DNA of 64,000 nucleotides from a virus (Duplodnaviria; Heunggongvirae; Uroviricota; Caudoviricetes), in IMG/VR virus record IMGVR_UViG_3300042923_000186, positions 1 to 64,000 of that record, one strand, 5' to 3'. This document shows, in pieces, positions 820 through 40,550 of the stretch. The position numbers were made by a program, and so were the translations under genes. The notes beneath the pieces were generated by a model. That model worked only from the letters and a program-made list of their open reading frames with translations. It had not been told where the DNA came from and searched no databases. Position 1 is the stretch's first letter, and each line of letters begins with the position of its first letter.

Positions 820-848
820 TTGACAGACCTAGCTAGCTATGGTACAAT
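820..848 (+). promoter_or_regulatory. sigma70-like promoter P1 (TTGACA-17-TACAAT)
   Basis: Consensus -35 and -10 hexamers with 17-nt spacer gacctagctagctatgg. First gene starts about 90 nt downstream. Confidence 0.6.
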
Positions 849-938
849 ACTGCTTACCGGCCTTGCCGGTTTCCTTGCGCAAGGATGTAGATAATTTAAC
901 CAGCCATCTCTTGATGGAGCACACAATAAGGATAAGAA

Positions 939-2522
939 ATGCCAGAAGACAAGATTCAAGAAATGACGGTAGTACCGGTAAATGAGCGTGGCGAGTGGGT
1001 GTTCGAGCCCGGCACAGGCACTAGCAACGTAGTTGGCTACTTGCCTAGCGGCTTCTATCCAGCCAGCACTGGGTCAGGTAGGATTCCTGCCGTGGGAGTG
1101 GGAGGCAATTTTCAGTTTGAATACCCTGTTAAGCTAGCTACGTGGGGCGACTCTCTGACGGATACGTCGGACGTAGCTGTGCAGGATTTGACTGTAGCCA
1201 CAAAAGCTGTTTTCGATGGTAAAGTGCTTCGCCGTGATCGCCTAGCATCGGCTCTGCTGTTCCACTCGGGCGGACGAGTCATTCCCGTTGCAAATTGCGG
1301 TTTGGGGGGAACAACCTCATCGGGAAGCGTCACTTCGGTTATTAACCGTGACCTAAATGCTGCTGACGTTAATCGACGTGGGGCGCAAGATGCTGCGAAC
1401 ACGGGAGCCGAAGTCTGTGTTATTTCGCTCGGACGTAACAACATTTTGCAGGGCGTCACTGCAAGTACCACTGCTGCGGCCCAACAGACAATTCTCAACA
1501 CAATTTATGCTGACGTTATCACAGCAGTAAAGCGCGCCCAAGCTCTGGGAATGTATCCGGTTCTCCGTGAGTTTGGCGGGTACGGCTATGAGGACAGCAA
1601 TGTCAACTATGCAAAAAACAGCGGGTTGACTCCCGCCGATGTGGCTGTGCAACAATCCGTCATCAATCGTGCAGCAGAACACATTATCAAAAATATCATT
1701 CCTACTCTGGGCGAAATGAAGGTGTTGTCCATTCGTGAGGGTATGGTTGATGCGAATGGTGCTTGGCTTCCTCAGTACACGACAGACGGCCTGCATGAGA
1801 ACTATAACGGTGTTCGTGTCATTGCAAAACGACTAATTGCTCTGATCGCATCCATGACACGCCCTCTACCTGATATGCTGTTCGCCCCTCTGCCAGCAGG
1901 CTCCGGTAAGACTAATGGCTTTGCCAACCCTGCTATGTTGCCTCCTTTGACAAACGGTGCAATTGCGGGAATGAACGCGTATGTAGATACTACTAACGGA
2001 AATAGTGCAACAGTCGTAGGGAATGGCGTAGTAATTGATGCTGATGGACGCTCGTGGCAAGAATTCATTGTTACACCTAGTGGATTTGTTGCAGGAGCAA
2101 AAAACCTTGCACCTAACGGATTGTCGAACGCAAACTTCTATGTCCGATCCGCTGTGGGCGGTGCTACCCCGGTCCTTCCTCTGGCTGTCGGAGATGTGTT
2201 CCGCCAAGAGTTTGATATCATCATTGACAACGGAGCAGGTGGTCCACCTCCTATCCTCTGCTGGGGTGCAAACGCTTATCTGGCATATAGCTCTGGGCAA
2301 ACCTTCCAGCACAAGCCTATCTCATATGGTACGACCAACAATGACCTTGTGGTGCCAGACGAAGTGATTAAGGGTAAAGTAATCACCCTGCCTATCGTGT
2401 CCCCCGCAGCTAGTGCAGACATTACAAACTGCTACATTTCCATCCTCGTGTACTCGGGTACTACAACGCCATATCGTATCCGTATTGGCGCACCGCGTAC
2501 TGTGAAGTACAATCCTCTGTAA
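939..2522 (+). CDS. SGNH/GDSL-family hydrolase domain protein with long C-terminal extension
   Basis: ATWGDSLTD block I (GDSL serine) and DGLHEN block V (DxxH) are visible in the translation. RBS aagga upstream. About 240-aa C-terminal Gly/Thr-rich extension. Confidence 0.55.
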   Translation: MPEDKIQEMTVVPVNERGEWVFEPGTGTSNVVGYLPSGFYPASTGSGRIPAVGVGGNFQFEYPVKLATWGDSLTDTSDVAVQDLTVATKAVFDGKVLRRDRLASALLFHSGGRVIPVANCGLGGTTSSGSVTSVINRDLNAADVNRRGAQDAANTGAEVCVISLGRNNILQGVTASTTAAAQQTILNTIYADVITAVKRAQALGMYPVLREFGGYGYEDSNVNYAKNSGLTPADVAVQQSVINRAAEHIIKNIIPTLGEMKVLSIREGMVDANGAWLPQYTTDGLHENYNGVRVIAKRLIALIASMTRPLPDMLFAPLPAGSGKTNGFANPAMLPPLTNGAIAGMNAYVDTTNGNSATVVGNGVVIDADGRSWQEFIVTPSGFVAGAKNLAPNGLSNANFYVRSAVGGATPVLPLAVGDVFRQEFDIIIDNGAGGPPPILCWGANAYLAYSSGQTFQHKPISYGTTNNDLVVPDEVIKGKVITLPIVSPAASADITNCYISILVYSGTTTPYRIRIGAPRTVKYNPL

Positions 2523-2540
2523 TAGAACGTCTGTGACCAA

Positions 2541-2571
2541 AGCCCCTACGCGAGAGCGTAGGGGCTTTTTC
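2541..2571 (+). terminator. rho-independent terminator
   Basis: 10-bp perfect stem gcccctacgc/gcgtaggggc with gaga loop followed by TTTTT. Confidence 0.8.
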
Positions 2572-2592
2572 TTTGCTTGTTACAAAAGTAGC

Positions 2593-2621
2593 TTGACAAG
2601 TAGGTAGTTAGCGGCTACTAT
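2593..2621 (+). promoter_or_regulatory. sigma70-like promoter P2 (TTGACA-17-TACTAT)
   Basis: Spacer agtaggtagttagcggc, a member of the TAG-rich spacer family. Confidence 0.55.
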
Positions 2622-2651
2622 GCTCCCTGTCACCAACGAAAAGGAGGAAAT

Positions 2652-2969
2652 ATGAACACTATCAAGGAAGCACTGGAAGGCGCTAAGAAGTACCTGTGGG
2701 ACGGCGTTGGCGAGGAGGAAGATAAGTCGGAGTATATCTGCCACGCAGCAGCGTTCTCGGTCGCCGCTAGCCAAGGACTGTCGGACCTGCATGAAGGGTT
2801 GCACCTTTCGCTATCGAGAAATGTGGAGCGACACGTAGAAGCTAAGTTAGAAGGGAATTGCACCGCTGTAGGGCTAGCGTCAGACAGGGGCGTCAACGTA
2901 GCTGATGACGAAGCACTCCAAGCATTCCGTCTGGCCTTCATTGACGAACTCATCGCGGGGCTGGAATGA
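2652..2969 (+). CDS. hypothetical protein
   Basis: Strong RBS aaaggaggaaat before the ATG. Packed into an operon with overlapping stop/start codons. Confidence 0.55.
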   Translation: MNTIKEALEGAKKYLWDGVGEEEDKSEYICHAAAFSVAASQGLSDLHEGLHLSLSRNVERHVEAKLEGNCTAVGLASDRGVNVADDEALQAFRLAFIDELIAGLE

Positions 2970-3316
2970 GTCTGGACGTTAAGGTAGGCGACAAGGTGTT
3001 TGTCGTCAAGAAGGTCTACCGTTCCGGTGCTAAACCTGAGACACGCTACGAAGAGGTAACGAAGGTTGGACGGAAATACTTCTTCACCGGCTCAGGTCAC
3101 TATCCGACTAAATTCTCACTGGAAGACGGACACGAGGCCGGAGAGGGTAACTACAAGGATCGTGCCTACCAAGATGAATCTGTCTATCATAGGCACTTGC
3201 GGCGTGATGTGCTTACACGAGAGATAAGCAGCCGGGTGCGAAATTGGACTTGGAATGAGTCCGTACCCACCGAAAAGCTTGAAATTATCTACCAAATTCT
3301 GAAGGAGCACGAATGA
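2966..3316 (+). CDS. hypothetical protein (N-terminal VKVGDKVFVV SH3/KOW-like motif)
   Basis: ATGA stop/start overlap with the upstream gene. Shares its N-terminal motif with the ORFs at 5040 and 26249. Confidence 0.55.
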   Translation: MSLDVKVGDKVFVVKKVYRSGAKPETRYEEVTKVGRKYFFTGSGHYPTKFSLEDGHEAGEGNYKDRAYQDESVYHRHLRRDVLTREISSRVRNWTWNESVPTEKLEIIYQILKEHE

Positions 3317-3609: not shown

Positions 3610-3622
3610 TCAAGGAGAACCA

Positions 3623-4984
3623 ATGAACACTTTGTACGAAATCATCAAGAGCCTGCAATCGGCTCAGGGCAACATTGCCAAGCAAGCCATTCTCGACGCC
3701 AACAAGGACAACAAGCTGTTCAAGGCGTTTATGAGGGCTACCTACGACGTAGGTATTAACTATTACCAGAAAAAGGCTCCGAAGCCCACTAAGCAAGGCG
3801 ACGCCGAGTTTGGCGGGTTCCAATTGGCGATCCTACAGTGTGCGCTTGCTGAACGGGGGGCTACGGGTAAAGACGCCAAACTTAATCTTCAAGAGGTCAT
3901 GGACCAATCGACACCAGAAGCGCAAGAATTGGTTAGCCTCATCATCGACCGTTCCATCGGTGCGAATGTGGGTGACACTATGGTGCTGAAGACGTGGCCT
4001 GATCTGTATTTCCTGCCACCGTACCAGCGTTGCTCCCTGATGGACGAGAAGGCACAGGAGCGCTTCAGCAAGCTTCCCGAGTTCTACGTACAGACCAAGG
4101 CTGACGGTTCGTTCGCATACGTTGTGAAGCGTCTGGATGGCTCTGTGGACGTGATTACGCGGCAGGGATCGAAGTACCCGCAATGGTTCGCTGAACAGAT
4201 GGCTGATGGGCTGGAGCCGGGCAAGGTACTGGTGGGCGAACTGCTGGTATATGTGTCTGTGCCTCGCGGTGGAAGCAGTGGGCCTAAGTTGCTGGACCGT
4301 AAAACCGGCAACGGCCTGCTGAATTCCGTCTTGAAGAATGGAGAACTGGAAGAAGAGTACAACGTTGAGATGCAAGCATGGGACATGTTGACGCAAGAGG
4401 AATTCGAAGCCGGTTCGTCGGATCGCCCATACCGGCAGCGTTTGGAAGACTTCAAGATTTCCGGCTACACGTCGCTAGCACCTCACGTTTCGATTATCCC
4501 GACGTGGACCGTGAAGACTCTCAAGGAGGCTGACGCTATCTACCGCGAGCACTTAAAACGCGGGCTGGAAGGCTGCATTGCCAAGAACCCTGACGCTCTG
4601 TGGAAAGACGGCACGAGCAAGGACATGGTGAAGATGAAGCTGAAGTTCGAAGTGGAGATGCGTTGTACTGACGTCTACGAGGGCACTGGCAAGGCCAAGG
4701 GCATGTTGGGCGGGATCAACATGGAGTCGGAAGACGGCCTGCTGGAGAACGACTGCGGCTCCGGCTTCTCGGATGACCAGCGAAAGCATTTCTGGGCACA
4801 CCCGGAGGAAATCATCGGTCACGTCATCGCCACGGAGGCTAACGACATCACGCAGGACCGTGACACACGGAAGAAGCCTAGCCTAAGCCTGCCGATCTTC
4901 GTAGAAGTGCGGAACGACAAGACCAAGGCCGACACGTACGCTGAAATCGTGGCACAGCTTGAAGCAGCGAAATCTGGTGCTTGA
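3623..4984 (+). CDS. ATP-dependent DNA ligase
   Basis: Nucleotidyltransferase motif I TKADGSF (KxDG). Downstream EGCIAK (motif IV-like) and MVKMKLKF (motif V-like). RBS aaggagaacca. Confidence 0.7.
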   Translation: MNTLYEIIKSLQSAQGNIAKQAILDANKDNKLFKAFMRATYDVGINYYQKKAPKPTKQGDAEFGGFQLAILQCALAERGATGKDAKLNLQEVMDQSTPEAQELVSLIIDRSIGANVGDTMVLKTWPDLYFLPPYQRCSLMDEKAQERFSKLPEFYVQTKADGSFAYVVKRLDGSVDVITRQGSKYPQWFAEQMADGLEPGKVLVGELLVYVSVPRGGSSGPKLLDRKTGNGLLNSVLKNGELEEEYNVEMQAWDMLTQEEFEAGSSDRPYRQRLEDFKISGYTSLAPHVSIIPTWTVKTLKEADAIYREHLKRGLEGCIAKNPDALWKDGTSKDMVKMKLKFEVEMRCTDVYEGTGKAKGMLGGINMESEDGLLENDCGSGFSDDQRKHFWAHPEEIIGHVIATEANDITQDRDTRKKPSLSLPIFVEVRNDKTKADTYAEIVAQLEAAKSGA

Positions 4985-5009
4985 CAAGTAGCTAGATAGA
5001 TAGTAGACT
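4981..5009 (+). promoter_or_regulatory. sigma70-like promoter P3 (TTGACA-17-TAGACT)
   Basis: Spacer agtagctagatagatag. Confidence 0.45.
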
Positions 5010-5897: not shown

Positions 5898-5903
5898 ACT
5901 AGC

Positions 5904-5933
5904 TTGACATGTAGCTAGGTAGTGTGCTATTAT
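5904..5933 (+). promoter_or_regulatory. sigma70-like promoter P4 (TTGACA-18-TATTAT)
   Basis: Spacer tgtagctaggtagtgtgc. Confidence 0.5.
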
Positions 5934-5974
5934 CGCTACCTAGCTGACAAACACCACTGAACAAGGAGAACAAA

Positions 5975-6366: not shown

Positions 6367-7509
6367 ATGGCACGCAAACTCGCATCCATCCAACGTATCA
6401 AAGCACTGACCCCGATTCCCGGTGCTGACCGTATCGAAACCGCCACCGTACAAGGCTGGCAAGTAGTAGTGAAGAAGGGCGAATACGCTGTAGGCGACCT
6501 CGTTATCTACGTGGAAATTGACGCGTGGGTACCTAACAAGGTAGCTCCGTTCCTTACTGGCGAAGGTAAGGAGCCGAAGGAATACAACGGCGTCAAGGGC
6601 GAGCGCCTGAAGACTATCAAGCTGCGCAAGCAAATTAGCCAAGGTCTGGTGTTGCCATGTAACGTGCTGGCACCTACGTACGACGAAGGCACTGACGTTA
6701 CCGAAGCTCTGGGCATCCAGAAGTGGGAAGCTGCGGAAGAGCGTCAGTCTAACAACGGTACGTACGCTCAAGCTGCAAAGACCCGTGCGTTCCCATTCTT
6801 CCTGCGGAAGACTGACCAAGAGCGCATCCAGAACTACGCTCATCTGATCGAAAAGGAACTGGACACGGAGTTCGAAGTGACGGTGAAGAAGGACGGTAGC
6901 TCCTGCACGGTGTTCCGTGTTGACCCGTCGTCCGAATACTACGCAGACGCCAAGAAGATGCTGGAAGGTAAGCCGTCGCTGTGGCAACGCCTGAAACAGT
7001 TCGTCCTGCGTGAGAAGGCCCAGCCAGTGTTCGGCATTTGCTCGCGGAACGTTCTGCTGAAGCTGGAGGGTGATAGCAACTTCCACAAGGCTACACGCGG
7101 CGTACTGGCAGCGCTGGACGATGAGCGTATCGACAACGGAAGCTGGGCTGTCCAAGGCGAGGTTGTTGCCCCGGATATTCAGGGCAATTACGAGAAGGTT
7201 AAAGACGTGGAGTTCCACATCTTTGACACTTTCAGTATCGACACTCAACGTTACTCAACGCCGCGTGCTCGTCAAGAATGGATCGCTGAGACTGGACTGA
7301 CCCACGCTACGGTAGTGGACAAAGGTACGCTTCGTAACATCATCCAGTACAAGGAAGGTGACGACATCGTAGCTAAGCTGCTTACGTACGCATCTGGCGA
7401 AGGCGACAACCCCGGCGTCCAACGTGAGGGCGTAGTGTTCAAGGCAATGGACAAAGACTTCAGCTTCAAAGCTGTGTCGAACGAATACCTGCTGGCTACC
7501 GGCAAGTAA
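6367..7509 (+). CDS. putative ATP-dependent RNA ligase (DraRnl/Rnl5-like: N-terminal OB tRNA-binding-like domain plus nucleotidyltransferase)
   Basis: N-terminus IKALTPIPGADRIETATVQGWQVVV resembles the Trbp111/OB fold. Motif I VKKDGSS (KxDG). REGVVFKAM is motif IV-like. Confidence 0.5.
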   Translation: MARKLASIQRIKALTPIPGADRIETATVQGWQVVVKKGEYAVGDLVIYVEIDAWVPNKVAPFLTGEGKEPKEYNGVKGERLKTIKLRKQISQGLVLPCNVLAPTYDEGTDVTEALGIQKWEAAEERQSNNGTYAQAAKTRAFPFFLRKTDQERIQNYAHLIEKELDTEFEVTVKKDGSSCTVFRVDPSSEYYADAKKMLEGKPSLWQRLKQFVLREKAQPVFGICSRNVLLKLEGDSNFHKATRGVLAALDDERIDNGSWAVQGEVVAPDIQGNYEKVKDVEFHIFDTFSIDTQRYSTPRARQEWIAETGLTHATVVDKGTLRNIIQYKEGDDIVAKLLTYASGEGDNPGVQREGVVFKAMDKDFSFKAVSNEYLLATGK

Positions 7510-7536
7510 TTAACTAACTAACAAGGAGAAACTAAC

Positions 7537-7815
7537 ATGGCAATCAAACCAAACGCACTGCTGGACACCATCCTGACCGAAAACGGCCTGAAGAACGACG
7601 CAGCACTGGGCCGAGTAATCGGCGTCCCGGCACCTGTACTGAGCAAGGTCCGTAATGGCATCCTGCCAGTAGGCGCAACGCTGATCATCCGTCTGCACGA
7701 GTCGTTCCCAATCGAAGTGAAGCGTATCAAGGAACTGGCCGGTATTCCAAGTTTGCAACGCTACGTAGCTCCAGAGCCAGAAGCTCAGCCAGAAGCCGAG
7801 GCTGCTACGGCTTGA
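7537..7815 (+). CDS. hypothetical protein (possible HTH)
   Basis: RBS aaggagaaactaac. Small basic protein. Confidence 0.45.
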   Translation: MAIKPNALLDTILTENGLKNDAALGRVIGVPAPVLSKVRNGILPVGATLIIRLHESFPIEVKRIKELAGIPSLQRYVAPEPEAQPEAEAATA

Positions 7816-9225: not shown

Positions 9226-9384
9226 ATGCCAATCTTTGAAGAAACAATCACTATTTCCAAGACGGAATACGACCGGCTGAACGACCGTGACCTGAAGCTT
9301 TCGTATCTCGAAGCCGGGGGCGTAGACAATTGGGAATGGTACAGCGAATCGCTCCGTGAATACTGGGCAGAGGAGGACGAATGA
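9226..9384 (+). CDS. small hypothetical protein (52 aa)
   Basis: Not in the ORF track. Strong RBS aactaaggagggaac before ATG. Stop overlaps the ThyX start (ATGA). Confidence 0.4.
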   Translation: MPIFEETITISKTEYDRLNDRDLKLSYLEAGGVDNWEWYSESLREYWAEEDE

Positions 9385-10385
9385 TCACGATTACCGGTAA
9401 GAACGGTATCAAGGCCACGATCCTTGCCGACAGCATCAACAAGCAGGGCAACCGATTTACGACGATGGAGATTGAGTATCCGCGTCTGGTGCTGGCCGAA
9501 CTGAACACGCACCGGATGATGTCGAAGAACAGCTTCAGCAGCCGTGCTGTGCCGTTTGCGAAGATGCTGGAGCAACTGACGGGAGAGCCTGTACGCTTCG
9601 GTGCGAACCAAGGTGGCATGCAGGACAAGGGCGAAGACTATGACGAGGTTATTGACATCGGGCCGTCTATGGGTCTGTCGCGTCCCTTCACAGCTCTGCC
9701 AAAAACAGCGTGGGCGCATGCCAAGGAAATTGCCATCTCCATCGCCAGTGCGTTTTTCAAGGCTGGCTACCACAAGCAAGTGTACAACCGCCTGCTGGAG
9801 CCGTATCAGATGATGAAGACTGTCATCTCAGCCACGGAGTGGGATAACTTCTTCTGGCTGCGAGACGACGATGCTGCGGACCCTACGTTGCGTGAACTGG
9901 CTCGTGTGATGCGAGAAGCACGCGAAGCAAGTAAGCCGGAGATGCTGAAGACGGGCGAGTGGCACTTGCCCTATATCGACGTGTGGCGGGACAAGGACGG
10001 GAATCGCTGTCATGGCATTGACGCTGAAGCGGAAATTCACGTAACGCTGGAGCAGGCCATCAAAGTGTCGTGCGCTCGCTGTGCAGCAGTGAGCTACCGG
10101 AACGAAGGCTACGGGCTGGAGAAGAGCATCGAAGTGTACGACCGTCTGGTGGGCAGCGATAAGAAGCATGCATCGGCATTCGAGCACTGCGCCACGCCTG
10201 TCCGCGAATACGGCTTCTATGATGGTGTATTTGGTAAGTATGAAAGCAACAAAGCGTTCGTCCCGTTCACATGGGAAGAGGGCATCACGCACGTTGACCG
10301 TCAAGGCAACCTGTGGTCGGGGAACCTGAAAGGGTTCATTCAATATCGAAAACTTATTCCGGGAGAGAACTGTGAAACTGAGTGA
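9381..10385 (+). CDS. thyX: flavin-dependent thymidylate synthase ThyX
   Basis: ThyX signature NTHRMMSKNSFSSRA (RHR-x7-S). Confidence 0.8.
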   Translation: MITITGKNGIKATILADSINKQGNRFTTMEIEYPRLVLAELNTHRMMSKNSFSSRAVPFAKMLEQLTGEPVRFGANQGGMQDKGEDYDEVIDIGPSMGLSRPFTALPKTAWAHAKEIAISIASAFFKAGYHKQVYNRLLEPYQMMKTVISATEWDNFFWLRDDDAADPTLRELARVMREAREASKPEMLKTGEWHLPYIDVWRDKDGNRCHGIDAEAEIHVTLEQAIKVSCARCAAVSYRNEGYGLEKSIEVYDRLVGSDKKHASAFEHCATPVREYGFYDGVFGKYESNKAFVPFTWEEGITHVDRQGNLWSGNLKGFIQYRKLIPGENCETE

Positions 10386-12752: not shown

Positions 12753-12781
12753 TTGACATAGGTAGCTAGTTAGTGTAAGCT
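12753..12781 (+). promoter_or_regulatory. sigma70-like promoter P5 (TTGACA-17-TAAGCT)
   Basis: Spacer taggtagctagttagtg. Confidence 0.45.
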
Positions 12782-12834
12782 GCTAGCTACGTAACTAACC
12801 AGAGGCCACGGCTTCAATCTAAAGGAGAAACTAA

Positions 12835-14780: not shown

Positions 14781-14891
14781 ATGCTTACTATCGCAGTAAT
14801 TTTCTTGGCAATCTCGCTCTTCTGCGACGACTACAAGGGCGCAGCATTATGGGCGTTCTGTGGTGGCGTGATAGCAGTACTAGCTAACTAA
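14781..14891 (+). CDS. small membrane protein (36 aa)
   Basis: Single hydrophobic helix; weak RBS aaggg. Confidence 0.25.
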   Translation: MLTIAVIFLAISLFCDDYKGAALWAFCGGVIAVLAN

Positions 14892-14896
14892 CTAGC

Positions 14897-14925
14897 TTGA
14901 CAGGCCCATCATGCTCCGGTATGAT
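14897..14925 (+). promoter_or_regulatory. sigma70-like promoter P6 (TTGACA-17-TATGAT) embedded in a terminator hairpin
   Basis: The -10 hexamer lies within the 3' arm of the hairpin. Confidence 0.5.
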
Positions 14926-14935
14926 GGGCTTTTTC
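14905..14935 (+). terminator. rho-independent terminator
   Basis: Hairpin cccatcat-gctccggt-atgatggg followed by cTTTTTc. Near-identical copy at 32040-32070 with compensatory changes. Confidence 0.7.
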
Positions 14936-14969
14936 GTTAGGGTGAAGCCTAACCACTACAAGGAGAAAT

Positions 14970-19067: not shown

Positions 19068-19123
19068 TGTAACAATAGTTACGCTATCTATTTAGGTGGC
19101 GTTAGCTAACTAAAGGAGGTATA

Positions 19124-19279
19124 ATGGACTACTATGATCGGGGCTACGAAGCCTACCAACAAGGCTTGCCAACGTCGGCCTGCCCGTTTGAACCGGGCGG
19201 AGAAGCCTGCCAAGACTGGCTAATGGGCTGGTGGCATGCCGAAATTGACGACAAAGAAAAAGATTCAAAAGAAGCTTGA
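19124..19279 (+). CDS. ribosome modulation factor (Rmf)-like small protein
   Basis: Not in the ORF track. Strong RBS taaaggaggtata. DRGYEAYQQGLPTSACPFEPGGEACQDWLMGWWHA parallels E. coli Rmf RGYQAGIAGRSKEMCPY...WLGGWREA. Confidence 0.5.
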   Translation: MDYYDRGYEAYQQGLPTSACPFEPGGEACQDWLMGWWHAEIDDKEKDSKEA

Positions 19280-19304
19280 CAGGTAGTTAGGTAGTAGGTA
19301 AGAT
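19276..19304 (+). promoter_or_regulatory. sigma70-like promoter P7 (TTGACA-17-TAAGAT)
   Basis: Spacer ggtagttaggtagtagg; overlaps the 3' end of the Rmf-like gene. Confidence 0.5.
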
Positions 19305-19370
19305 GCTCTTACTCGCTGACGAAAACAGCAAACAACCCGCCCTTCAGGGCCTAACCAAGGAGAAAATAAC

Positions 19371-21739: not shown

Positions 21740-22121
21740 ACGTACGAAGGCTACCAAGGCCCAGAAGCGAGGCAAACGCCGAGCTAGGGCCAAGGACTAC
21801 GCCCTGATGCTCACAGCAGCTACGGCTGTCGTAGTGGACAACAGAGGCGTAGACGGTCAGCACCGGGCAGGAAACATAGCGTACGTACTTATGACCTTCC
21901 CTCACTGGGTGAAGTTCGCAGAGGACTTCCCTAAAGGGCACATCACGGTACGTACGCTACTTACAAACACCTACAAGGTGAACGCTGTAAAATTGCTCGA
22001 TTGGCTGTACAAGCACGGGCACAGTAGCTACAACGCTAGCATGCTAGTTCGAGGTACAAAGGACTTCGAATTGCTTGACGATAGCGTAGACAAGTTGCTG
22101 AGCCTTGACATAGTTAGCTAG
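21717..22121 (+). CDS. hypothetical protein
   Basis: Basic N-terminus; the true start may be an internal Met. Confidence 0.4.
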   Translation: MMSGRMARRTKATKAQKRGKRRARAKDYALMLTAATAVVVDNRGVDGQHRAGNIAYVLMTFPHWVKFAEDFPKGHITVRTLLTNTYKVNAVKLLDWLYKHGHSSYNASMLVRGTKDFELLDDSVDKLLSLDIVS

Positions 22122-22133
22122 CTAGTGTAGAAT
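22105..22133 (+). promoter_or_regulatory. sigma70-like promoter P8 (TTGACA-17-TAGAAT)
   Basis: Spacer tagttagctagctagtg; immediately upstream of the tRNA. Confidence 0.5.
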
Positions 22134-22147: not shown

Positions 22148-22220
22148 CTCCCGGTAGCTCAAAGGATAGAGCACTGATCTTCTAAGTCAGGTGTTCCTTG
22201 TTCGAATCAAGGTCGGGAGG
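22148..22220 (+). tRNA. tRNA-Arg (anticodon TCT)
   Basis: Manually folded cloverleaf. 7-bp acceptor ctcccgg/tcgggag. D-arm GCTC-AAAGGATA-GAGC. Anticodon stem ctgat/gtcag with loop cTTCTaa. T-arm ccttg-TTCGAAT-caagg. Discriminator G then encoded CCA (22221-22223). Confidence 0.75.
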
Positions 22221-22243
22221 CCACTAAATTAAAGGAGGACTGA

Positions 22244-23681: not shown

Positions 23682-23713
23682 TTTGTCAACATTCTAGGTA
23701 AGTAGCCTAGCTA

Positions 23714-23746
23714 GCCCCGCATTCCGAAAGGGTGCGGGGCTTTTTC
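23714..23746 (+). terminator. rho-independent terminator
   Basis: Hairpin ccccgca...tgcgggg followed by cTTTTTc. Confidence 0.75.
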
Positions 23747-23759: not shown

Positions 23760-24362
23760 ATGAAAACAAAAGAAAGTTTGGACTGGCACGAGATGTTTTA
23801 CTACGATGCTGAGTCTCCTAGTGGCCTAAGGAGGAAGACGGACTGGAGGACTGGAAAGGACTACCAGATACTCAGGGCTAAGGCTGGAAGCCCAGTAGGT
23901 AGCATAGCTGGCATCGGTTACTACGTTACATACGTGGATGGCCGACTGTTCTACTGTCACAGGATTGTCATGGAGTTGCACGGTGAAGACATTAAGGACA
24001 TGTCTGTAGACCACGTAGATGGCAACTCGCTCAACAACAAGTATGAGAACCTGAGAGCGGTTCGGCACAACGTAAATCACAGGAACAGAAAGAAGCCTAC
24101 TACAAACAAATCAGGGGTGGTAGGCGTGTCACTGAATACCGAGATGATAGGCGGGAAGGAGAAGCGGAGATGGGTTGCAGGGTGGCGGGATATGGAAGGG
24201 AAGTCCCGTTACAAGTATTTTTCTGTGACAAAGCTAGGGGAAGAAGGGGCGTTCAAGGCGGCTTGTGAGCACAGGTCGGACGTTATTAACAAGCTAAACG
24301 CTGAAGGTGCGGGCTACACACAAAGACATGGAGGTGCAGATGAGGGCAGTATGGGACATTGA
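23760..24362 (+). CDS. HNH homing endonuclease with C-terminal AP2 domain
   Basis: VDHVDGNSLNNKYENLR HNH core. AP2-like SGVVGVS...WVAGWRD. Confidence 0.65.
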   Translation: MKTKESLDWHEMFYYDAESPSGLRRKTDWRTGKDYQILRAKAGSPVGSIAGIGYYVTYVDGRLFYCHRIVMELHGEDIKDMSVDHVDGNSLNNKYENLRAVRHNVNHRNRKKPTTNKSGVVGVSLNTEMIGGKEKRRWVAGWRDMEGKSRYKYFSVTKLGEEGAFKAACEHRSDVINKLNAEGAGYTQRHGGADEGSMGH

Positions 24363-25720: not shown

Positions 25721-26252
25721 GGGCGAACTGACCCGCTGCGGCGGGACAATGACGGAGGCTCAATGGCTCGCTTGGGTGCGTTCTGCGCTGCGTTCGAAGT
25801 GGTTAAGGTGGCCTCCACGGGCAGAGGCTTTGAAGGCCGCTAGACGCTCCTATCGCGGTCCTAAGACGCAGCAGAAGTGGGAGTACAAGTGTGCCATGTG
25901 TACGGAGTGGTTCATGCAGAAGGAAGTCGAGGTTGACCACTACCCAGAGGATGCCGGTAGCATTCTGTCGTCGGATGACATCGGCCCCTTCGTGAATCGG
26001 TTGTACTGTGAGACGGACAACCTCCGCATCCTGTGCAAGCCCTGTCACAAGGTATATACGCTAGCTAGCTCGAAGGGCATCAGCTTGGACGAAGCCCGGC
26101 TGGAGAAATCTGTCACAGAGAAGATGAAGGATGAAAATATCCTTGACTACCTAGCTAGCTACGGGTACACTGGTGCCTCAGTTAGTAACGCTACCAAGCG
26201 TAAAGCGCTTGTAACAAGCATCCTCCGGGATGCATTACCAAAGGAGAAATGA
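25707..26252 (+). CDS. HNH endonuclease (Cys/His box)
   Basis: CAMC...VDHYPE...CKPCHK. Start uncertain (track 25593; internal ATG 25707 preferred). Confidence 0.45.
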   Translation: MAKTKGELTRCGGTMTEAQWLAWVRSALRSKWLRWPPRAEALKAARRSYRGPKTQQKWEYKCAMCTEWFMQKEVEVDHYPEDAGSILSSDDIGPFVNRLYCETDNLRILCKPCHKVYTLASSKGISLDEARLEKSVTEKMKDENILDYLASYGYTGASVSNATKRKALVTSILRDALPKEK

Positions 26253-28896: not shown

Positions 28897-28925
28897 TTGC
28901 AAAGTAGCTGGGTGTATGGTACAAT
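28897..28925 (+). promoter_or_regulatory. sigma70-like promoter P9 (TTGCAA-17-TACAAT) upstream of the RNR operon
   Basis: Spacer agtagctgggtgtatgg. Confidence 0.5.
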
Positions 28926-28942
28926 AGCTGCCTAACACTGAA

Positions 28943-28966
28943 CGGGGGCTACGGCCCCCATTTTTA
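28943..28966 (+). terminator. terminator-like hairpin in the RNR leader
   Basis: gggggc-tacg-gccccc followed by aTTTTTa, located downstream of the P9 -10 and upstream of the nrdB RBS. Confidence 0.5.
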
Positions 28967-28982
28967 TTCCTATAGGAGGGTT

Positions 28983-32013: not shown

Positions 32014-32031
32014 AATAGCTAGCTAACTAGC

Positions 32032-32060
32032 TTGACAGGCCCACTATGCTTCGGTATAGT
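32032..32060 (+). promoter_or_regulatory. sigma70-like promoter P10 (TTGACA-17-TATAGT) embedded in a terminator hairpin
   Basis: Twin of the P6 element. Confidence 0.5.
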
Positions 32061-32070
32061 GGGCTTTTTC
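32040..32070 (+). terminator. rho-independent terminator
   Basis: cccactat-gcttcggt-atagtggg followed by cTTTTTc. Confidence 0.7.
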
Positions 32071-32089
32071 GTTACTACAGGAGGAAATA

Positions 32090-33559: not shown

Positions 33560-34038
33560 AGCTCATCATCGCTGGAAGTCGCTCCATCAAGAGCTACAGC
33601 ACCGTCCGTGCAGCTATCCTAGAATCGGGCCTCTGGGAGCGCCATAAACGGGCCATAGAGGTTGTCTCGGGCAAGGCTAAGGGGGTAGATACCCTTGGAG
33701 AGATTTTCGCCTCTAAGGCCGATTTAAAGCTTCACGAGAAGCCTGCCGACTGGGACGACATCGACGTGCCGGGCGCTGTCATCCGTTACAACTGGGAAGG
33801 CAAGCCTTACAACGCTCTGGCCGGTCACTGGCGAAACGAAGAGATGGCCCAGTTCGCTGATGAAGCCCTCATCGTATGGGATGGCAAGTCCACAGGCAGC
33901 TTGGACATGCTTCATCGGATGATTGCACTGGAGAAGCCTGTCTACCTCTTCCCTCTCCGTATCGGAACGGACACACTGGACGGACTGGAGAACAAGGGCG
34001 TGCAAATTATTTTTCCCAATAGCTTGACAAGTAGCTAG
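33556..34038 (+). CDS. SLOG/DprA-like Rossmann-fold protein (DUF2493-like)
   Basis: Trimmed to MKLIIAGSRS. The GSR motif is typical of the DprA/YpsA/SLOG clade. Confidence 0.4.
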   Translation: MKLIIAGSRSIKSYSTVRAAILESGLWERHKRAIEVVSGKAKGVDTLGEIFASKADLKLHEKPADWDDIDVPGAVIRYNWEGKPYNALAGHWRNEEMAQFADEALIVWDGKSTGSLDMLHRMIALEKPVYLFPLRIGTDTLDGLENKGVQIIFPNSLTSS

Positions 34039-34042
34039 ATAA
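34014..34042 (+). promoter_or_regulatory. sigma70-like promoter P11 (TTGACA-17-TAGGAT)
   Basis: Spacer agtagctagataagtaa. Confidence 0.45.
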
Positions 34043-34083
34043 GTAATAGGATACGTACATACCAACTTACAAGGAGAAGGAAA

Positions 34084-36724: not shown

Positions 36725-37255
36725 ATGCTCTCTGACTACCTCACGTATGACGAGACTAGCCCTACTTGTCTACGTTGGAAGGTAGCTAGGAAGGGCGGTG
36801 GTAAAGGTAGCTCCAAGAAACCCGGGGATGTTGCGGGAGTGTTTTCTGGAAGGTATGCGCAGTTCTGGCTAGACGGAGTTAAGTGGTATGTCCACCGGGC
36901 CGTCTGGGAGCTTCACAACGGTGATGCCGGAGAGGACGATGTTGATCACAAGGATACCGATCCAACTAATAACAAGATCGGGAATTTGCGACTCGTACCT
37001 CACGCTATTAATCAGCGTAACTGCAAGAGAGGCAAGAACAACACATCGGGCATAAACGGAGTAAGCTACGATAAATCTAAGGATCGATGGGTAGCCAAAT
37101 GGAGGGACTTAGCAGGGGCCGATAAGAGTAAGAGCTACACAGTCCGTAAGTACGGCGAAGCTGCAAAAGGTATGGCTATACAGGCCAGACAAGCTGCGAT
37201 AGACGAATTAAACAGGTCCGGGGCTGGGTACACAGATAGTCACGGAAAACACTAA
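36725..37255 (+). CDS. HNH homing endonuclease with C-terminal AP2 domain (paralog of 23760)
   Basis: VDHKDTDPTNN HNH core. AP2-like SGINGVS...WVAKWRD. Confidence 0.65.
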   Translation: MLSDYLTYDETSPTCLRWKVARKGGGKGSSKKPGDVAGVFSGRYAQFWLDGVKWYVHRAVWELHNGDAGEDDVDHKDTDPTNNKIGNLRLVPHAINQRNCKRGKNNTSGINGVSYDKSKDRWVAKWRDLAGADKSKSYTVRKYGEAAKGMAIQARQAAIDELNRSGAGYTDSHGKH

Positions 37256-37267
37256 GGAGAAAATTAA

Positions 37268-38902: not shown

Positions 38903-39108
38903 AGCTGTGCACAGACTGTAAGCACTTCCGTAACAGCATTGCTGGTGCAGAGTTTGGGAAGTGTGCAGCCTTCCGCTCTAACGTAGATGGAACTCCGGCG
39001 TACTATTGCTACGAGGCACGTTCGAGTAGGTGTGGAGATAGTGCTGTAAGGTTCGAGCCTAAGCCGCCGTCACTGCTTGCTAGGCTGGTAGATAAAATCT
39101 GTAAATAA
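38899..39108 (+). CDS. small Cys-rich hypothetical protein (zinc-ribbon-like CTDC...CYE...C)
   Basis: Overlaps the upstream stop. Confidence 0.45.
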   Translation: MKLCTDCKHFRNSIAGAEFGKCAAFRSNVDGTPAYYCYEARSSRCGDSAVRFEPKPPSLLARLVDKICK

Positions 39109-39112
39109 ACGC

Positions 39113-39141
39113 TTGACCCCGCTAGGTAGTTATGTAATAAT
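39113..39141 (+). promoter_or_regulatory. sigma70-like promoter P12 (TTGACC-17-AATAAT)
   Basis: Spacer ccgctaggtagttatgt. Confidence 0.4.
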
Positions 39142-39173
39142 AGCTACCTTACTAACTAAAGGAGAAATAAAAT

Positions 39174-40517
39174 ATGAAGAACTATATCGGCTTTGCTAAC
39201 GATCACTCGTCCTCGATGTCCGGCCTTCGCACTACGGCTATTGAGGACTACAACACTAACGTTAAAGCCGTAACCGGCGCTGCATCGGCTAATATGCTGG
39301 ATACCATTGTATCCATGACACGGTTTGCCACGTCTGTCGAGCGTGTCATTGTCAACTCCAATCCTCACGTACTGAAGCCGTTAGCTCAGTGGCCTGCCTC
39401 TGGCATGACCTCACTTTATGACGGGATTGGTGATCTGATCGAACAATTTGAAAACGTACCTGACGCAGCGAATACAAACGTGTCATTCCTAATTATGGCG
39501 ACTACGGACGGTGGTGAAAATTGCTCTGTCCGCTACTCGGCTAGCACGCTTGCTGCGAAAATTCGTAAGCTGCAACAGACTGACCGTTGGACGTTTGTTC
39601 TGCGAGTACCGAAAGGCCACAAAGATTCCTCCGCTATCGGTAACTTGGGAATCCCTCCCGGTAATATCATCGAATGGGAAACGTCTTCTTCCGGCATGGA
39701 AAAGGCCACCGCTGCAACCACCGCTGCCGTGAACCAGTTCTACGCTTCTCGTGCATCCGGTCAGAAGTCATCCACCGTGTTCTACGCTCAAGCTACGGCT
39801 GTCGATACTTCGGCTCTGGTGGACATCACCAAGGACGTTTCGCTGTACGTCGTTCCGGCAGAAGATAGCGGCATCGAAATCCGCGACTTCATCCTGCGTC
39901 ACCGCATGGAATACCTGAAAGGTTCGGCGTTCTACCAACTGACGAAGACGGAAGCCCGAGTGCAGCCTGAGAAGATCATCGCTGTCCGTGACCGTACGAC
40001 TGGCAAGATTTACGCTGGCAAGGAAGCTCGCCAAATGCTGGGCCTGCCAACTGACAAGAACGTGCGTCTGCACCCCGGCGACCACGGCAACTTCGACCTG
40101 TTCATTCAGTCGTCGTCCGTGAATCGTAAGCTGGTGGGCGGTACTGGTGTCGTCTACTGGAAGGCAATCGGCAAGCCGTTCACTGAAGCTGATCTGGCAT
40201 ACCTGCAACCTAAGCCAGTAGCTCCGGCTGTCGTGCAACTGCCTGCTGTGACGCCAACTAGCAAGCCTACGCCTAGCCCGCTGAAGCCTACGCCGAAGAC
40301 GCCTGCCGGTACGTTCACTATGTCCGCTACGGCTCCTGCTGCTCCGGTAGCAATCGTTCCTAACGATGGTGGCCGTGTACGTTACCACATGCCGACTGCG
40401 AAGGCTCGATTCTTTGCTACCCGTGACGGTGCTCGTGCTCTCGCTGCCCTGTCCGGTGGCAAGCAATACGACGCTGGCCCAACGGCAGCTAAAGGTAAGC
40501 GCTTCTTCGTAGAATAA
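39174..40517 (+). CDS. von Willebrand factor A (vWA) domain protein
   Basis: MIDAS-like NDHSSSM (DxSxS), T..YDG and ATTDGGEN. Pro/Thr-rich linker and C-terminal domain of unknown function. Confidence 0.5.
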   Translation: MKNYIGFANDHSSSMSGLRTTAIEDYNTNVKAVTGAASANMLDTIVSMTRFATSVERVIVNSNPHVLKPLAQWPASGMTSLYDGIGDLIEQFENVPDAANTNVSFLIMATTDGGENCSVRYSASTLAAKIRKLQQTDRWTFVLRVPKGHKDSSAIGNLGIPPGNIIEWETSSSGMEKATAATTAAVNQFYASRASGQKSSTVFYAQATAVDTSALVDITKDVSLYVVPAEDSGIEIRDFILRHRMEYLKGSAFYQLTKTEARVQPEKIIAVRDRTTGKIYAGKEARQMLGLPTDKNVRLHPGDHGNFDLFIQSSSVNRKLVGGTGVVYWKAIGKPFTEADLAYLQPKPVAPAVVQLPAVTPTSKPTPSPLKPTPKTPAGTFTMSATAPAAPVAIVPNDGGRVRYHMPTAKARFFATRDGARALAALSGGKQYDAGPTAAKGKRFFVE

Positions 40518-40521
40518 CAGC

Positions 40522-40550
40522 TTGACGGATGGGTAGGTAGCTAGTAAGAT
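40522..40550 (+). promoter_or_regulatory. sigma70-like promoter P13 (TTGACG-17-TAAGAT)
   Basis: Spacer gatgggtaggtagctag. Confidence 0.45.

What the first reader, a model, noticed from the sequence alone, without database searches (positions are those of the whole stretch)
820..40550. At least 13 early/middle promoters share an unusual TAG-repeat spacer (TTGACA-(a)GTAGCTAGnTAG...-TAnnnT)
Beyond near-consensus -35 and -10 hexamers, the 17-nt spacers are conserved and built from (G)TAG units. Examples: agtaggtagttagcggc, gtagctaggtagtg, ggtagctagttagtg, tagttagctagctagtg, ggtagttaggtagtagg, agtagctagatag, gggtaggtagctag, gctaggtagttatg. Host sigma70 normally does not read spacer sequence. Conservation here suggests a phage factor or operator overlay, since CTAGCTAG is palindromic. 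An unusual spacer DNA shape requirement is another possibility. CTAG is also commonly counter-selected in proteobacteria, so its enrichment is notable.
Basis: seen in the sequence. Interest (0 to 1): 0.65.

Follow-up and report, generated by a model that had tools for sequence, protein, structure and literature searches.

The report
Phage promoters with TAG-repeat spacers
An uncultivated lytic phage starts its early and middle operons from about a dozen host-type promoters whose normally free 17-base spacers are tiled with four-base NTAG units, a real and conserved oddity that more likely tunes the promoter, and sometimes doubles as a hairpin arm, than serves as a palindromic repressor site.

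Summary
The core observation is real. Eleven + strand sigma70-type promoters (TTGACA-17/18-TAnnnT), each at the head of an operon, have spacers built from 2-5 in-phase NTAG units. TAGNTAGNTAG occurs 12 times against 0.2 expected. TAG is 11 times denser in these spacers than in other intergenic DNA.

Two claims do not hold. The strict count is 11 plus one weak site, not at least 13. CTAG is not enriched genome-wide.

The unit is mostly non-palindromic GTAG, always on the sense strand. It sits in two tilings that abut either the -35 or the -10.

GTAG-rich spacers recur in about 10 related metagenomic phages, so the feature is inherited and maintained. Four promoters mirror the units after the -10 and form a hairpin around it. 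Two further modules place the promoter inside a true terminator.

Best reading (about 0.4): an extended, lineage-specific promoter cassette in which the spacer acts in cis on RNA polymerase, and in a subset doubles as a boundary hairpin. A trans factor, RNA or translation-level punctuation, and neutral slippage remain open.

Side finding: CCWGG is completely absent from the window, and most palindromic hexamers are purged.

The parts
820..848 (+). Class-1 promoter: TTGACA gacCTAGCTAGCTAtgg TACAAT. TGn extended -10.
2593..2621 (+). Class-1 promoter: TTGACA agTAGgTAGtTAGcggc TACTAT. Follows the terminator at 2539-2568.
4981..5009 (+). Class-1 promoter: TTGACA agTAGcTAGaTAGaTAG TAGACT. The stop of the upstream ligase gene is the TGA inside the -35. 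No hairpin.
5904..5949 (+). Class-1 promoter (18-nt spacer, TATTAT) inside a hairpin. Arms 5910-5924 and 5934-5949, with the -10 in the loop.
   Evidence: -21.1 kcal/mol, z -4.5
12753..12793 (+). Class-1 promoter: TTGACA TAGgTAGcTAGtTAGtg TAAGCT. Mirrored by CTAGCTACGTA after the -10; hairpin 12759-12793.
   Evidence: -17.1 kcal/mol, z -1.3. Orthologues in relatives keep a hairpin with different arms.
19276..19304 (+). Class-1 promoter downstream of the DNA polymerase gene: TTGACA ggTAGtTAGgTAGTAGg TAAGAT.
22105..22133 (+). Class-1 promoter: TTGACA TAGtTAGcTAGcTAGtg TAGAAT. Drives tRNA-Arg(TCT) at 22148-22223.
26143..26171 (+). Class-1 promoter inside the 3' end of a gene: TTGACT acCTAGCTAGCTAcggg TACACT.
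28897..28925 (+). Weak family member: TTGCAA agTAGctgggtgtatgg TACAAT. Preceded by TAGTTAGC and followed by a terminator at 28949-28973.
34024..34052 (+). Class-1 promoter: TTGACA agTAGcTAGaTAAgTAA TAGGAT. The upstream gene stops at the second TAG. Identical to the 4981 promoter over 20 nt. No hairpin.
39113..39149 (+). Class-1 promoter: TTGACC ccgCTAGgTAGtTAtgt AATAAT. Hairpin 39124-39149 around the -10.
   Evidence: z -2.2
40522..40563 (+). Class-1 promoter: TTGACG gatgggTAGgTAGcTAG TAAGAT. Arms GGGTAGGTAGCTAG and GGCTACTTACCTAA form a hairpin (40530-40563) with the -10 in the loop.
   Evidence: -20.8 kcal/mol, z -5.6
14880..14941 (+). Class-2 module: a period-4 stop run CTAGCTAACTAACTAGC, then TTGACA-N17-TATGAT. 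The spacer and -10 form an intrinsic terminator (stem 14902-14931 plus a T run).
   Evidence: z -5.5; family D8
32016..32076 (+). Second copy of the class-2 promoter-in-terminator module. 90% identical to the first over 59 nt.
   Evidence: (z -4.8)
57387..57429 (-). Late-block promoter TTGACA-N17-TATAAT with a non-TAG spacer. GCTAGCTAGCTA lies directly upstream of the -35.
62820..62872 (-). Late-block promoter TTGACA-N17-TATTAT with a non-TAG spacer. CTAACTAGCTTACTACCATACTAC lies upstream of the -35.
23695..23746 (+). TAG/TAA run (TAGgTAAgTAGccTAGcTAG) abutting an intrinsic terminator, with no usable -10. Shows that the run also occurs without a promoter.
7507..7521 (+). Four period-4 TAA (TAAtTAAcTAAcTAA) between two genes, with no promoter or terminator.
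19103..19113 (+). TAGcTAAcTAA run in a leader, with no promoter.
251..277 (.). CTAACTAGCTAG run abutting the small hairpin GCGCAaatttcTGCGC near the left end. On the - strand it precedes TGTGCTATAGT, an extended -10-like sequence.

Best explanation
These are genuine host-RNA-polymerase (sigma70-type) promoters that head the early and middle operons of an uncultivated lytic phage of about 89 kb. The phage is distantly related to Pakpuna/Nankoku-like and Aeromonas Plateaulake-like phages.

The spacer is not free sequence. It is part of an extended, lineage-specific promoter cassette: A-rich upstream, GC, TTGACA, (RG)TAG(NTAG)n(TG), TA(A/C/G)nnT, GC.

The NTAG tiling spans the whole 17 bp. It is anchored so that a TAG abuts either the -35 (TAG starts at spacer positions 1, 5, 9, 13) or the -10 (positions 3, 7, 11, 15).

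Inferred mechanism: the array acts in cis on RNA polymerase. Easily deformed TA steps every 4 bp on a C-poor non-template strand would set spacer twist and flexibility. They could also favour core or sigma contacts of the beta'-zipper 'Z-element' or sigma region 3 kind. This would give strong promoters on the phage's own DNA without a dedicated factor.

The cassettes spread and stay alike through copying and unit slippage under a fixed 17-bp length.

In about a third of the promoters the spacer has a second job. CTAC/TTAC units after the -10 mirror it, so read-through RNA from the upstream operon folds into a hairpin with the -10 in the loop. In the two class-2 modules this hairpin is a full intrinsic terminator. 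The elements are therefore composite promoter/terminator punctuation squeezed into 55-85 nt gaps.

Shown: the motif, its statistics, its position and strand, its conservation in relatives, and the hairpins.

Inferred: use by sigma70 polymerase, the cis effect on promoter function, and the role of the hairpins.
For: Promoter identity:
- The hexamers are near-consensus with 17/18-bp spacing. There are 14 matches against 2 expected.
- Each site sits at an operon start.
- The relative PAK_P3 has no phage polymerase. Most of its 75 mapped start sites (78.7%) resemble sigma70 promoters, and the sigma70-like ones tested drove reporter expression in E. coli (PMC10914365).
- No sigma or anti-sigma domain was found among the window proteins scanned.

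Spacer-specific constraint:
- TAG is 10.8 times denser in the spacers than in other intergenic DNA.
- All non-palindromic arrays are on the sense strand.

Positional constraint relative to the hexamers:
- In 42 clade promoters with 17-nt spacers, TAG starts at odd spacer positions 59 times and at even positions 8 times. Peaks are at positions 3, 7, 13 and 15.
- G at -13 occurs in 26 of 36 promoters, and RGTAG follows the -35.

Conservation:
- In 33 promoters of relatives (about 70-85% protein identity), TAG (49, 6.3-fold) and GTA (42) are the top spacer trinucleotides. CTA scores 17 and TAC 15.
- Orthologous promoters keep GTAG units while the exact sequence changes.

Copying and slippage:
- Near-identical promoter pairs exist: 4981/34024, 12753/22105, 820/26143 and 14897/32032.
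- The L169 orthologue carries the same TAGGTAGCTA string shifted by exactly one 4-nt unit.

Precedent for polymerase reading the spacer: PMC3173786 and PMC3130263.

Hairpin layer:
- z scores are -5.6, -4.5 and -2.2 for 40522, 5904 and 39113, and -5.5 and -4.8 for the class-2 terminators.
- Orthologues of the 12753 promoter have hairpins built from unrelated arms: L168 z -6.0, L012 z -4.2, L170 z -3.4.
- Complementarity within a promoter exceeds that between promoters: pooled difference -2.05 kcal/mol, p = 0.004.
Against: - There is no transcription data for this phage, and its host is unknown.
- No test shows that TAG spacers change promoter strength.
- TAG count does not correlate with -10 quality, so there is no sign of compensation.
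- Two registers 2 bp apart argue against one specific polymerase-base contact.
- Clade promoters are related by descent, so the positional statistics overstate independence.
- Period-4 TAA/TAG runs also occur where there is no promoter: 7507, 19103, 23695, and upstream of the -35 in the class-2 and late promoters. A purely promoter-internal role does not explain these.
- Hairpins are absent or not significant at 7 of 11 promoters.
- TAGCTA is also over-represented threefold inside genes. Part of the signal may therefore be a genome-wide word bias.
Confidence: 0.4

Rival explanations
1. The TAG array is a binding site on DNA for a trans-acting protein, phage-encoded or host. The protein would switch the early/middle promoters off or on during infection, as an operator or activator site laid over the spacer.
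For: - TAG-array spacers are confined to the + strand early/middle block. The two late-block promoters have ordinary spacers.
- The array is placed in fixed tilings relative to the hexamers.
- TAGCTA-type words are over-represented in this lineage and in L168 but not in all relatives, as expected if a factor co-evolves with its site.
- A weakly HTH-like early protein exists at 7537-7815.
- From general knowledge: Arc at P22 Pant and the lambda Q binding element lie between the -35 and -10.
Against: - There is no fixed site sequence, and the N positions are variable.
- The units are mostly non-palindromic, and there are two registers.
- TAG triplets 4 bp apart lie on different helix faces, unlike known duplex-DNA sites.
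- The HTH candidate is detectable in only 3 relatives.
- No other regulator domain was found.
- Runs also occur away from promoters.
Confidence: 0.2
2. The array works at the RNA or translation level in read-through transcripts, as gene-boundary punctuation. Period-4 UAG/UAA closes all three reading frames just after the upstream gene and before a hairpin or terminator. It may also be bound by a multimeric RNA-binding protein, in the manner of TRAP or HutP triplet repeats. The spacer is used simply because it is the only unconstrained stretch in a 55-85 nt gap.
For: - Period 4 is the most compact way to place a stop in all three frames.
- At the orthologous class-2 modules TAA and TAG are interchangeable: CTAGCTAACTAACTAG (window), GTAAGTAGGTAAGTAG (L168) and TAAGTAGCTAACTAAC (L170).
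- Runs sit next to terminators at 14880, 32016 and 23695, and at promoter-less junctions at 7507 and 19103.
- Period-4 stop pairs are twice as common on the sense strand: 39 against 20 in the window and 70 against 36 in relatives.
- Upstream genes end within 10 nt of the array or inside it.
- In four promoters the array is the 5' arm of a hairpin.
- TRAP binds (G/U)AG repeats and HutP binds XAG-rich sites (PMC3064811, PMC2425495).
Against: - Only one frame needs a stop after a gene.
- TGA almost never joins the runs, and TAG is the least used real stop codon (9 of 91).
- All-frame closure of intergenic regions is no commoner on the sense strand (24/49) than on the antisense strand (21/49).
- Off-frame TAA is depleted in genes, while TAG and CTA are enriched on both strands. 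This is not a general 'hidden stop' selection.
- The preference for odd spacer positions relative to the hexamers is not expected for an RNA-level role.
- The 1-nt spacers do not fit TRAP (2-3 nt) or HutP (4 nt).
- No TRAP or HutP domain was found.
Confidence: 0.2
3. There is no function in the spacer sequence itself. The arrays are the neutral product of tetranucleotide slippage and gene conversion among promoter copies. They arose in a genome that carries a lineage-specific bias towards TAGCTA/GTAG words, and only spacer length is selected.
For: - Promoters occur in near-identical pairs.
- The array is shifted by one unit in the L169 orthologue while the 17-nt length is kept.
- TAGCTA is enriched threefold even inside genes against synonymous shuffles: 36 against 12.3. 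TANNTA scores 184 against 118.
- The intensity of the TAG flavour differs between lineages.
- PeSL cassettes of T4-like phages are a precedent for homogenised promoter/terminator repeats (PMC2839356, PMC4122927).
Against: - TAG is 11 times denser in spacers than in other intergenic DNA, which is equally free to drift.
- The similarity between paralogous promoters stops at the promoter edges.
- The sense-strand GTAG bias persists across relatives whose spacer sequences have otherwise diverged.
- Even registers, which would fit equally many units, are avoided.
Confidence: 0.15

Closest known systems
PeSL composite promoter-terminator cassettes of T4-like phages (Arbiol 2010, PMC2839356; Comeau 2014, PMC4122927)
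   Same: Both are short, repeated regulatory cassettes. Each combines a near-consensus sigma70 early promoter with a stem-loop. Each is present in many copies per genome and has a lineage-specific consensus. The class-2 modules at 14880 and 32016 are 90% identical over 59 nt.
   Different: - Here the promoter lies inside the hairpin (-10 in the loop or 3' arm) rather than beside it.
- The conserved part includes a tetranucleotide-tiled spacer, which the passages of the PeSL paper that I searched do not mention (0 hits for 'spacer').
- The phage is not T4-like.
- A link with indel hot spots was not tested.
Spacer-reading by RNA polymerase itself: the beta'-zipper 'Z-element' of T7 A1 (PMC3173786) and sigma70 sensing of the spacer (PMC3130263)
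   Same: Spacer sequence between -24 and -13 changes promoter use by E. coli polymerase 2-6 fold without any extra factor. The defining example is a phage early promoter whose spacer contains CTAA and CCTATAG (spacer sequence from memory).
   Different: No repeat or period-4 structure is known for the Z-element. The orientation and sequence differ. The effect on the present promoters is untested.
Strong early promoters of T7 (A2: TTGACA-17-TAAGAT; A3: TTGACA-17-TACGAT) and the extended early-promoter consensus of T4 (from memory, not checked here)
   Same: They share a perfect -35, the -10 variants TAAGAT and TACGAT, an A-rich upstream region, and sequence similarity between paralogous promoters that extends into the spacer.
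   Different: Those spacers are not tandem tetranucleotide arrays and are not built from TAG.
TRAP and HutP triplet-repeat RNA sites (PMC3064811, PMC2425495)
   Same: Both involve repeated UAG/GAG triplets on the sense RNA, next to or overlapping a terminator hairpin.
   Different: The spacers between triplets are 1 nt here, against 2-3 nt for TRAP and 4 nt for HutP. No cognate protein was found. The arrays here lie inside promoters of a phage that presumably infects a Gram-negative host.
Phase-variable promoters with repeats in the spacer (e.g. TA repeats at Haemophilus hif; from memory)
   Same: Tandem short repeats sit between the -35 and the -10.
   Different: Spacer length is fixed at 17 (18 once) in the window and in relatives. 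The repeats therefore do not vary the spacing.

Membership tests
sigma70-type (-35/-10) bacterial promoter | A TTGACA-like -35 and a TAnnnT -10, separated by 17 +/- 1 bp | tested here: met
   All 11 class-1 and 4 class-2/late sites meet this. There are 14 exact matches against 1.96 expected.
sigma70-type (-35/-10) bacterial promoter | Correct orientation and position upstream of a gene or operon start | tested here: met
   Each site lies in a gap or at a gene end, 20-60 nt before a Shine-Dalgarno sequence and start codon or a tRNA.
sigma70-type (-35/-10) bacterial promoter | Transcription start 6-8 nt after the -10, and binding by host E-sigma70 | not testable with these tools
   Support is indirect only. 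In PAK_P3, promoter P033 starts 7 nt after the -10, and the sigma70-like phage promoters tested drove reporter expression in E. coli.
Extended -10 (TGn) promoter | TG at -15/-14 | tested here: not met
   Only 820, 5904 and 39113 have TGn in the canonical place. In the 'TAGTG|TA' type the TG is at -14/-13.
Palindromic repressor operator overlapping a promoter | A dyad-symmetric site of defined sequence and length | tested here: not met
   CTAGCTAG is present in 3 of 11 spacers. The others are direct repeats of GTAG, TTAG or ATAG. Arm spacing in the larger dyads varies from 16 to 24 bp.
Palindromic repressor operator overlapping a promoter | A cognate DNA-binding protein is encoded | tested here: inconclusive
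   The 92-aa protein gives a weak HTH PHROG hit (E = 7.7e-4) and no Pfam hit. Homologues are found in 3 relatives only.
PeSL-type composite promoter/terminator cassette | A near-consensus early promoter joined to a stem-loop, repeated in the genome | tested here: met
   Met by the class-2 modules (family D8, 59 nt, 90% identity) and by hairpins at 4 class-1 promoters.
PeSL-type composite promoter/terminator cassette | Flanks variable genes or indels between close relatives, in a T4-like genome | not tested
   No relative closer than about 85% protein identity was found. The phage is not T4-like.
TRAP/HutP-type triplet-repeat RNA regulatory site | At least 3 (G/U)AG triplets with 2-4 nt spacers | tested here: not met
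   The triplets are present, but the spacer is 1 nt.
TRAP/HutP-type triplet-repeat RNA regulatory site | A cognate ring-shaped RNA-binding protein | tested here: inconclusive
   No TRAP or HutP Pfam domain was found among the proteins scanned or precomputed. The host is unknown, and the - strand late-block proteins were not scanned.
Phase-variable repeat-in-spacer promoter | Repeat-number changes alter the -35/-10 spacing | tested here: not met
   The spacer is 17 nt in 10 of 11 promoters and in orthologues. The one-unit shift in L169 keeps the length at 17.
Three-frame stop module | Stops in all three frames on the sense strand, with any stop codon usable and a bias towards the sense strand | tested here: inconclusive
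   Runs of at least 3 units close all frames, and TAA and TAG interchange. However, TGA is nearly absent, all-frame closure is 24/49 on the sense strand against 21/49 on the antisense, and period-4 stop pairs are 2:1 sense to antisense.

The most novel reading that the evidence does not exclude
The (N)TAG tetranucleotide arrays are recognition sites for an as yet unknown multimeric protein of the phage or host. The protein would read the array either as RNA in read-through transcripts or as melted or duplex DNA in the promoter. The RNA mode would resemble TRAP or HutP but with 1-nt spacers, and would control termination, hairpin formation or RNA stability at every operon boundary. Either way, one factor would coordinate about a dozen early/middle promoters. 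This would be a new class of spacer-embedded regulatory repeat.
Probability: 0.15. Interest if true: 0.8.

Novelty: new variant of a known kind. Interest (0 to 1): 0.5.

Why it matters
Promoter spacers are normally treated as length-only elements. Here a dozen natural promoters, plus their orthologues in about ten related phages, keep a simple, strand-specific, position-locked tetranucleotide tiling in the spacer.

That makes a clean natural test set for how spacer sequence, twist and flexibility feed into sigma70 promoter function. It can also test whether phages pack a second signal into the only free bases of very short intergenic gaps. That signal could be a hairpin arm, a stop array or a factor site.

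The elements are 60 nt long and can be synthesised. They can therefore be tested without isolating the phage.

Practically, the consensus should improve promoter and operon annotation in this uncultivated phage group. It could also supply compact, strong promoter/terminator parts.

Tried and rejected
- **Close relatives or a named phage.** Megablast of 20 kb against 50,697 phage records found nothing. Metagenome and IMG/VR scans gave relatives with at most 73% polymerase identity. The protein database gave primase relatives of 74-85% identity. A Logan contig is identical to the window, so it adds no variation.
- **The motif elsewhere.** TTGACANNTAGNTAGNTAG gave 33 single, mostly unrelated hits in IMG/VR. 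GCTTGACARGTAGNTAGNTAG gave no hit in 185,579 bacterial and archaeal genomes.
- **Genome-wide CTAG enrichment.** Rejected.
- **Hidden-stop ('ambush') selection in genes.** Rejected. Off-frame TAA is depleted, and only TAG/CTA is enriched, on both strands.
- **A hairpin as the universal reason for the TAG array.** Rejected. Only 3-4 of 11 promoters fold significantly.
- **Compensation for weak -10 hexamers.** No correlation.
- **Decay of CCWGG into CTAGG as the source of the TAG bias.** Rejected. CTAGG and CCTAG are not enriched.
- **Sigma, anti-sigma, TRAP, HutP or HU/IHF-like proteins.** None found by Pfam or PHROGs in the proteins scanned.
- **Rfam.** Only the tRNA was found.
- **PAK_P3 terminator coordinates.** I fetched the supplement but did not go through the terminator coordinates. 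The listed transcription units run through promoter P033, so its hairpin is not an efficient terminator there.

Full report
**What the window is.** The 64-kb window is part of an uncultivated lytic phage.
- It has no near match among 50,697 phage records.
- Its family-A DNA polymerase is 49-53% identical to those of Aeromonas and Pseudomonas phages, including Plateaulakevirus and Nankokuvirus members.
- A Logan assembly contig is identical to it over 22.5 kb.
- A JGI contig of 88.9 kb carries an identical primase.
- Genes run on the + strand to about 41.8 kb. These cover replication, nucleotide and NAD metabolism. Beyond that point genes run on the - strand, which I take to be the late (structural) block; its proteins were not scanned.

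**The observation.**
- TTGACA-N15-19-TAnnnT occurs 14 times against 2 expected.
- Eleven + strand sites have spacers made of in-phase NTAG units. Their -35 starts are 820, 2593, 4981, 5904, 12753, 19276, 22105, 26143, 34024, 39113 and 40522.
- Each heads an operon. One heads a tRNA.
- The period is exactly 4. TAGNTAG occurs 47 times against 12, and TAGNTAGNTAG 12 times against 0.2. Other spacings sit at background.
- All runs of three or more units are intergenic.
- TAG is 11 times denser in the 11 spacers than in the rest of the intergenic DNA, and 20 times denser than in genes.
- The promoters form the largest repeat family in the window.

The strict count is 11, plus a weak site at 28897. 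CTAG is not enriched overall. The palindrome CTAGCTAG is in only three spacers, and the usual unit is GTAG.

**A second promoter class.** At 14897 and 32032 the spacer is GC-rich. Together with the -10 it forms a canonical intrinsic terminator (z -5.5 and -4.8). A period-4 TAG/TAA run (CTAGCTAACTAACTAGC) lies just upstream of the -35. The two copies are 90% identical over 59 nt. The two clear promoters of the - strand late block (57415 and 62848) also have ordinary spacers with CTA/TAG runs upstream of the -35.

**Anatomy of the array.**
- Non-palindromic arrays are on the sense strand in 9 of 9 cases.
- They tile the whole spacer in two ways. Either NG-(TAGN)3-TAG abuts the -10, or (TAGN)4-G abuts the -35.
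- Over 42 clade promoters with 17-nt spacers, TAG starts at odd positions 59 times and at even positions 8 times. These promoters are related by descent, so this is not 42 independent trials.
- The extended consensus is: A-rich upstream, GC, TTGACA, RGTAG..., G at -13, TA(A/C/G)nnT, then G/A-C.

**Relatives.**
- Ten related metagenomic phages were retrieved.
- Their promoters are less regular but share the bias. In 33 promoters TAG (49) and GTA (42) are the top spacer trinucleotides, against CTA 17 and TAC 15. Spacers are C-poor and leaders are G-poor.
- Orthologous promoters keep GTAG units while the sequence changes.
- In L169 the same TAGGTAGCTA string sits one unit further from the -35, at unchanged spacer length.
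- More distant phages, including Pseudomonas phage CHA_P1, lack TAG spacers.

**Hairpins.**
- In four class-1 promoters CTAC/TTAC units after the -10 mirror the spacer. This gives a hairpin with the -10 in the loop: 40522 z -5.6, 5904 z -4.5, 39113 z -2.2, and 12753 -17 kcal/mol.
- Most orthologues of the 12753 promoter have a hairpin there too, but built from unrelated arms (L168 z -6.0, L012 z -4.2, L170 z -3.4; weaker in L169 and L019, none in L167). This argues for a conserved structure.
- Across 104 promoter-like sites, the spacer pairs better with its own downstream region than with those of other promoters in the same genome (-2.05 kcal/mol, p = 0.004).
- CHA_P1/PAK_P3 promoters show the same architecture with GC-rich arms. 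For PAK_P3 P033 the mapped start lies just after the right arm, so the hairpin exists only in read-through RNA or in DNA.
- Seven of the 11 window promoters have no significant hairpin. The hairpin therefore cannot be the general reason for the TAG array.

**Runs outside promoters.**
- Period-4 TAA/TAG runs also occur at 7507 (four TAA), at 19103, at 23695 (abutting a terminator) and near 251.
- Period-4 stop pairs are twice as frequent on the sense strand, and TAA and TAG interchange at orthologous class-2 modules. This fits a three-frame stop role.
- Other results do not fit that role. TGA hardly takes part. TAG is the rarest real stop codon (9 of 91). All-frame closure is no commoner on the sense strand than on the antisense strand. 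In genes, off-frame TAA is depleted while TAG and CTA are enriched on both strands.

**Genome-wide context.**
- TANNTA is enriched inside genes against synonymous-codon shuffles (184 against 118 +/- 8.5). TAGCTA scores 36 against 12.3.
- The genome is otherwise purged of palindromes. Sixteen of the 64 palindromic hexamers are absent, and the total is 537 against 1040 expected.
- TAGCTA and GCTAGC are the only clearly over-represented palindromic hexamers.
- CCWGG is absent altogether: 0 against 117 expected. It is nearly absent from the whole clade.
- The TAGCTA excess is clearest in the window and in L168, weaker in a few other relatives, and absent from the rest.

**Interpretation.**
- I rank first a cis-acting, extended promoter cassette (0.4). 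The array is spacer-specific, strand-specific and position-locked to the hexamers. It is conserved in relatives and occurs in paralogous copies. Sequence-dependent spacer effects through sigma70 and the beta' zipper are documented. In a subset it also forms a boundary hairpin or terminator, which makes the elements resemble PeSL cassettes of T4-like phages.
- A trans-acting DNA-binding factor (0.2) is not excluded. The lack of a fixed site, the non-palindromic units, the 4-bp period and the patchy HTH candidate all count against it.
- RNA or translation-level punctuation (0.2) explains the period and the runs outside promoters, but not the register preference or the stop-codon usage.
- Neutral slippage and conversion (0.15) explains the pairs and the unit shift, but not the 11-fold excess over other intergenic DNA.
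- None of these can be settled without start-site mapping and spacer-swap experiments. Both are feasible with synthetic 60-nt elements.

Noticed in passing
whole window; loci L001, L002, L012, L019, L057, L058, L167-L170: CCWGG (the Dcm/EcoRII site) is completely absent: 0 against about 117 expected. It is almost absent from every clade relative, whereas the Pseudomonas phage CHA_P1 locus has 305. Sixteen of 64 palindromic hexamers are absent, and palindromic hexamers total 537 against 1040 expected. This is strong restriction-site avoidance and hints at hosts with EcoRII-like systems.
   Followed up: partly
whole window, including coding regions: TAGCTA (54 against 17.8) and GCTAGC (50 against 27.8) are the only clearly over-represented palindromic hexamers. 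TAGCTA is 36 against 12.3 inside genes against synonymous-codon shuffles, mostly as NTA-GCT-A. The excess is about three times denser in the + strand block, and is clearest in this lineage and in L168.
   Followed up: partly
window 28897-28982: The promoter TTGCAA-N17-TACAAT is followed about 25 nt later by a strong terminator (GGGGGCTACGGCCCCC-ATTTTTATT). This lies immediately before the ribonucleotide reductase small-subunit gene. It could be a small RNA of about 40 nt or an attenuator.
   Followed up: no
window 19305-19349: The leader of the 19276 promoter contains GCTCTTAC, which resembles lambda boxA (from memory). A small hairpin, GCCCTTCAGGGC, lies about 27 nt downstream. This is possibly a nut-like site or coincidence.
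   Followed up: no
window 19124-19279; 2966-3313: A 51-aa ORF gives a weak ribosome-modulation-factor (RMF) Pfam hit and ends at the TGA inside the -35 of the 19276 promoter. An early 116-aa protein carries a phage ProQ C-terminal-like domain (E = 3e-18) and may bind RNA.
   Followed up: no
window 9381-10382; 12835-14064: A divergent Thy1/ThyX-like protein and a protein with a dATP/dGTP diphosphohydrolase N-terminal domain suggest unusual nucleotide metabolism, perhaps modified bases. No PurZ-like domain was seen.
   Followed up: no
window 23760-24362; 36725-37255: There are two HNH plus AP2-domain homing-endonuclease-like genes in the early/middle block.
   Followed up: no
loci L027, L042, L045, L049 (IMG/VR contigs unrelated to the window): Another phage lineage (GC about 46%) carries TAGNTAG words, almost all TAGCTAG, at 26-36 per 10 kb (both strands). 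Most of them appear to lie inside genes. This is a separate case of an iterated CTAG-based palindrome.
   Followed up: no
locus L056 (Pseudomonas phage CHA_P1) and the PAK_P3 promoter table: Many experimentally mapped sigma70 promoters of PAK_P3-type phages have GC-rich inverted repeats joining the spacer and the discriminator, with the -10 in the loop (e.g. GGGCCgggTAAACTGGCCC). Some have the -35 in the loop of a terminator-like hairpin (P061). The parts of the paper I read do not mention this.
   Followed up: partly
window 5899-5918, - strand: The sequence CTAGCT-ACATGTCA-AGCTAG followed by TTTATT looks like an intrinsic terminator for antisense transcripts. It places the -35 of the 5904 promoter in its loop. 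A similar TAGCT/AGCTA dyad lies around the -35 at 34024.
   Followed up: no
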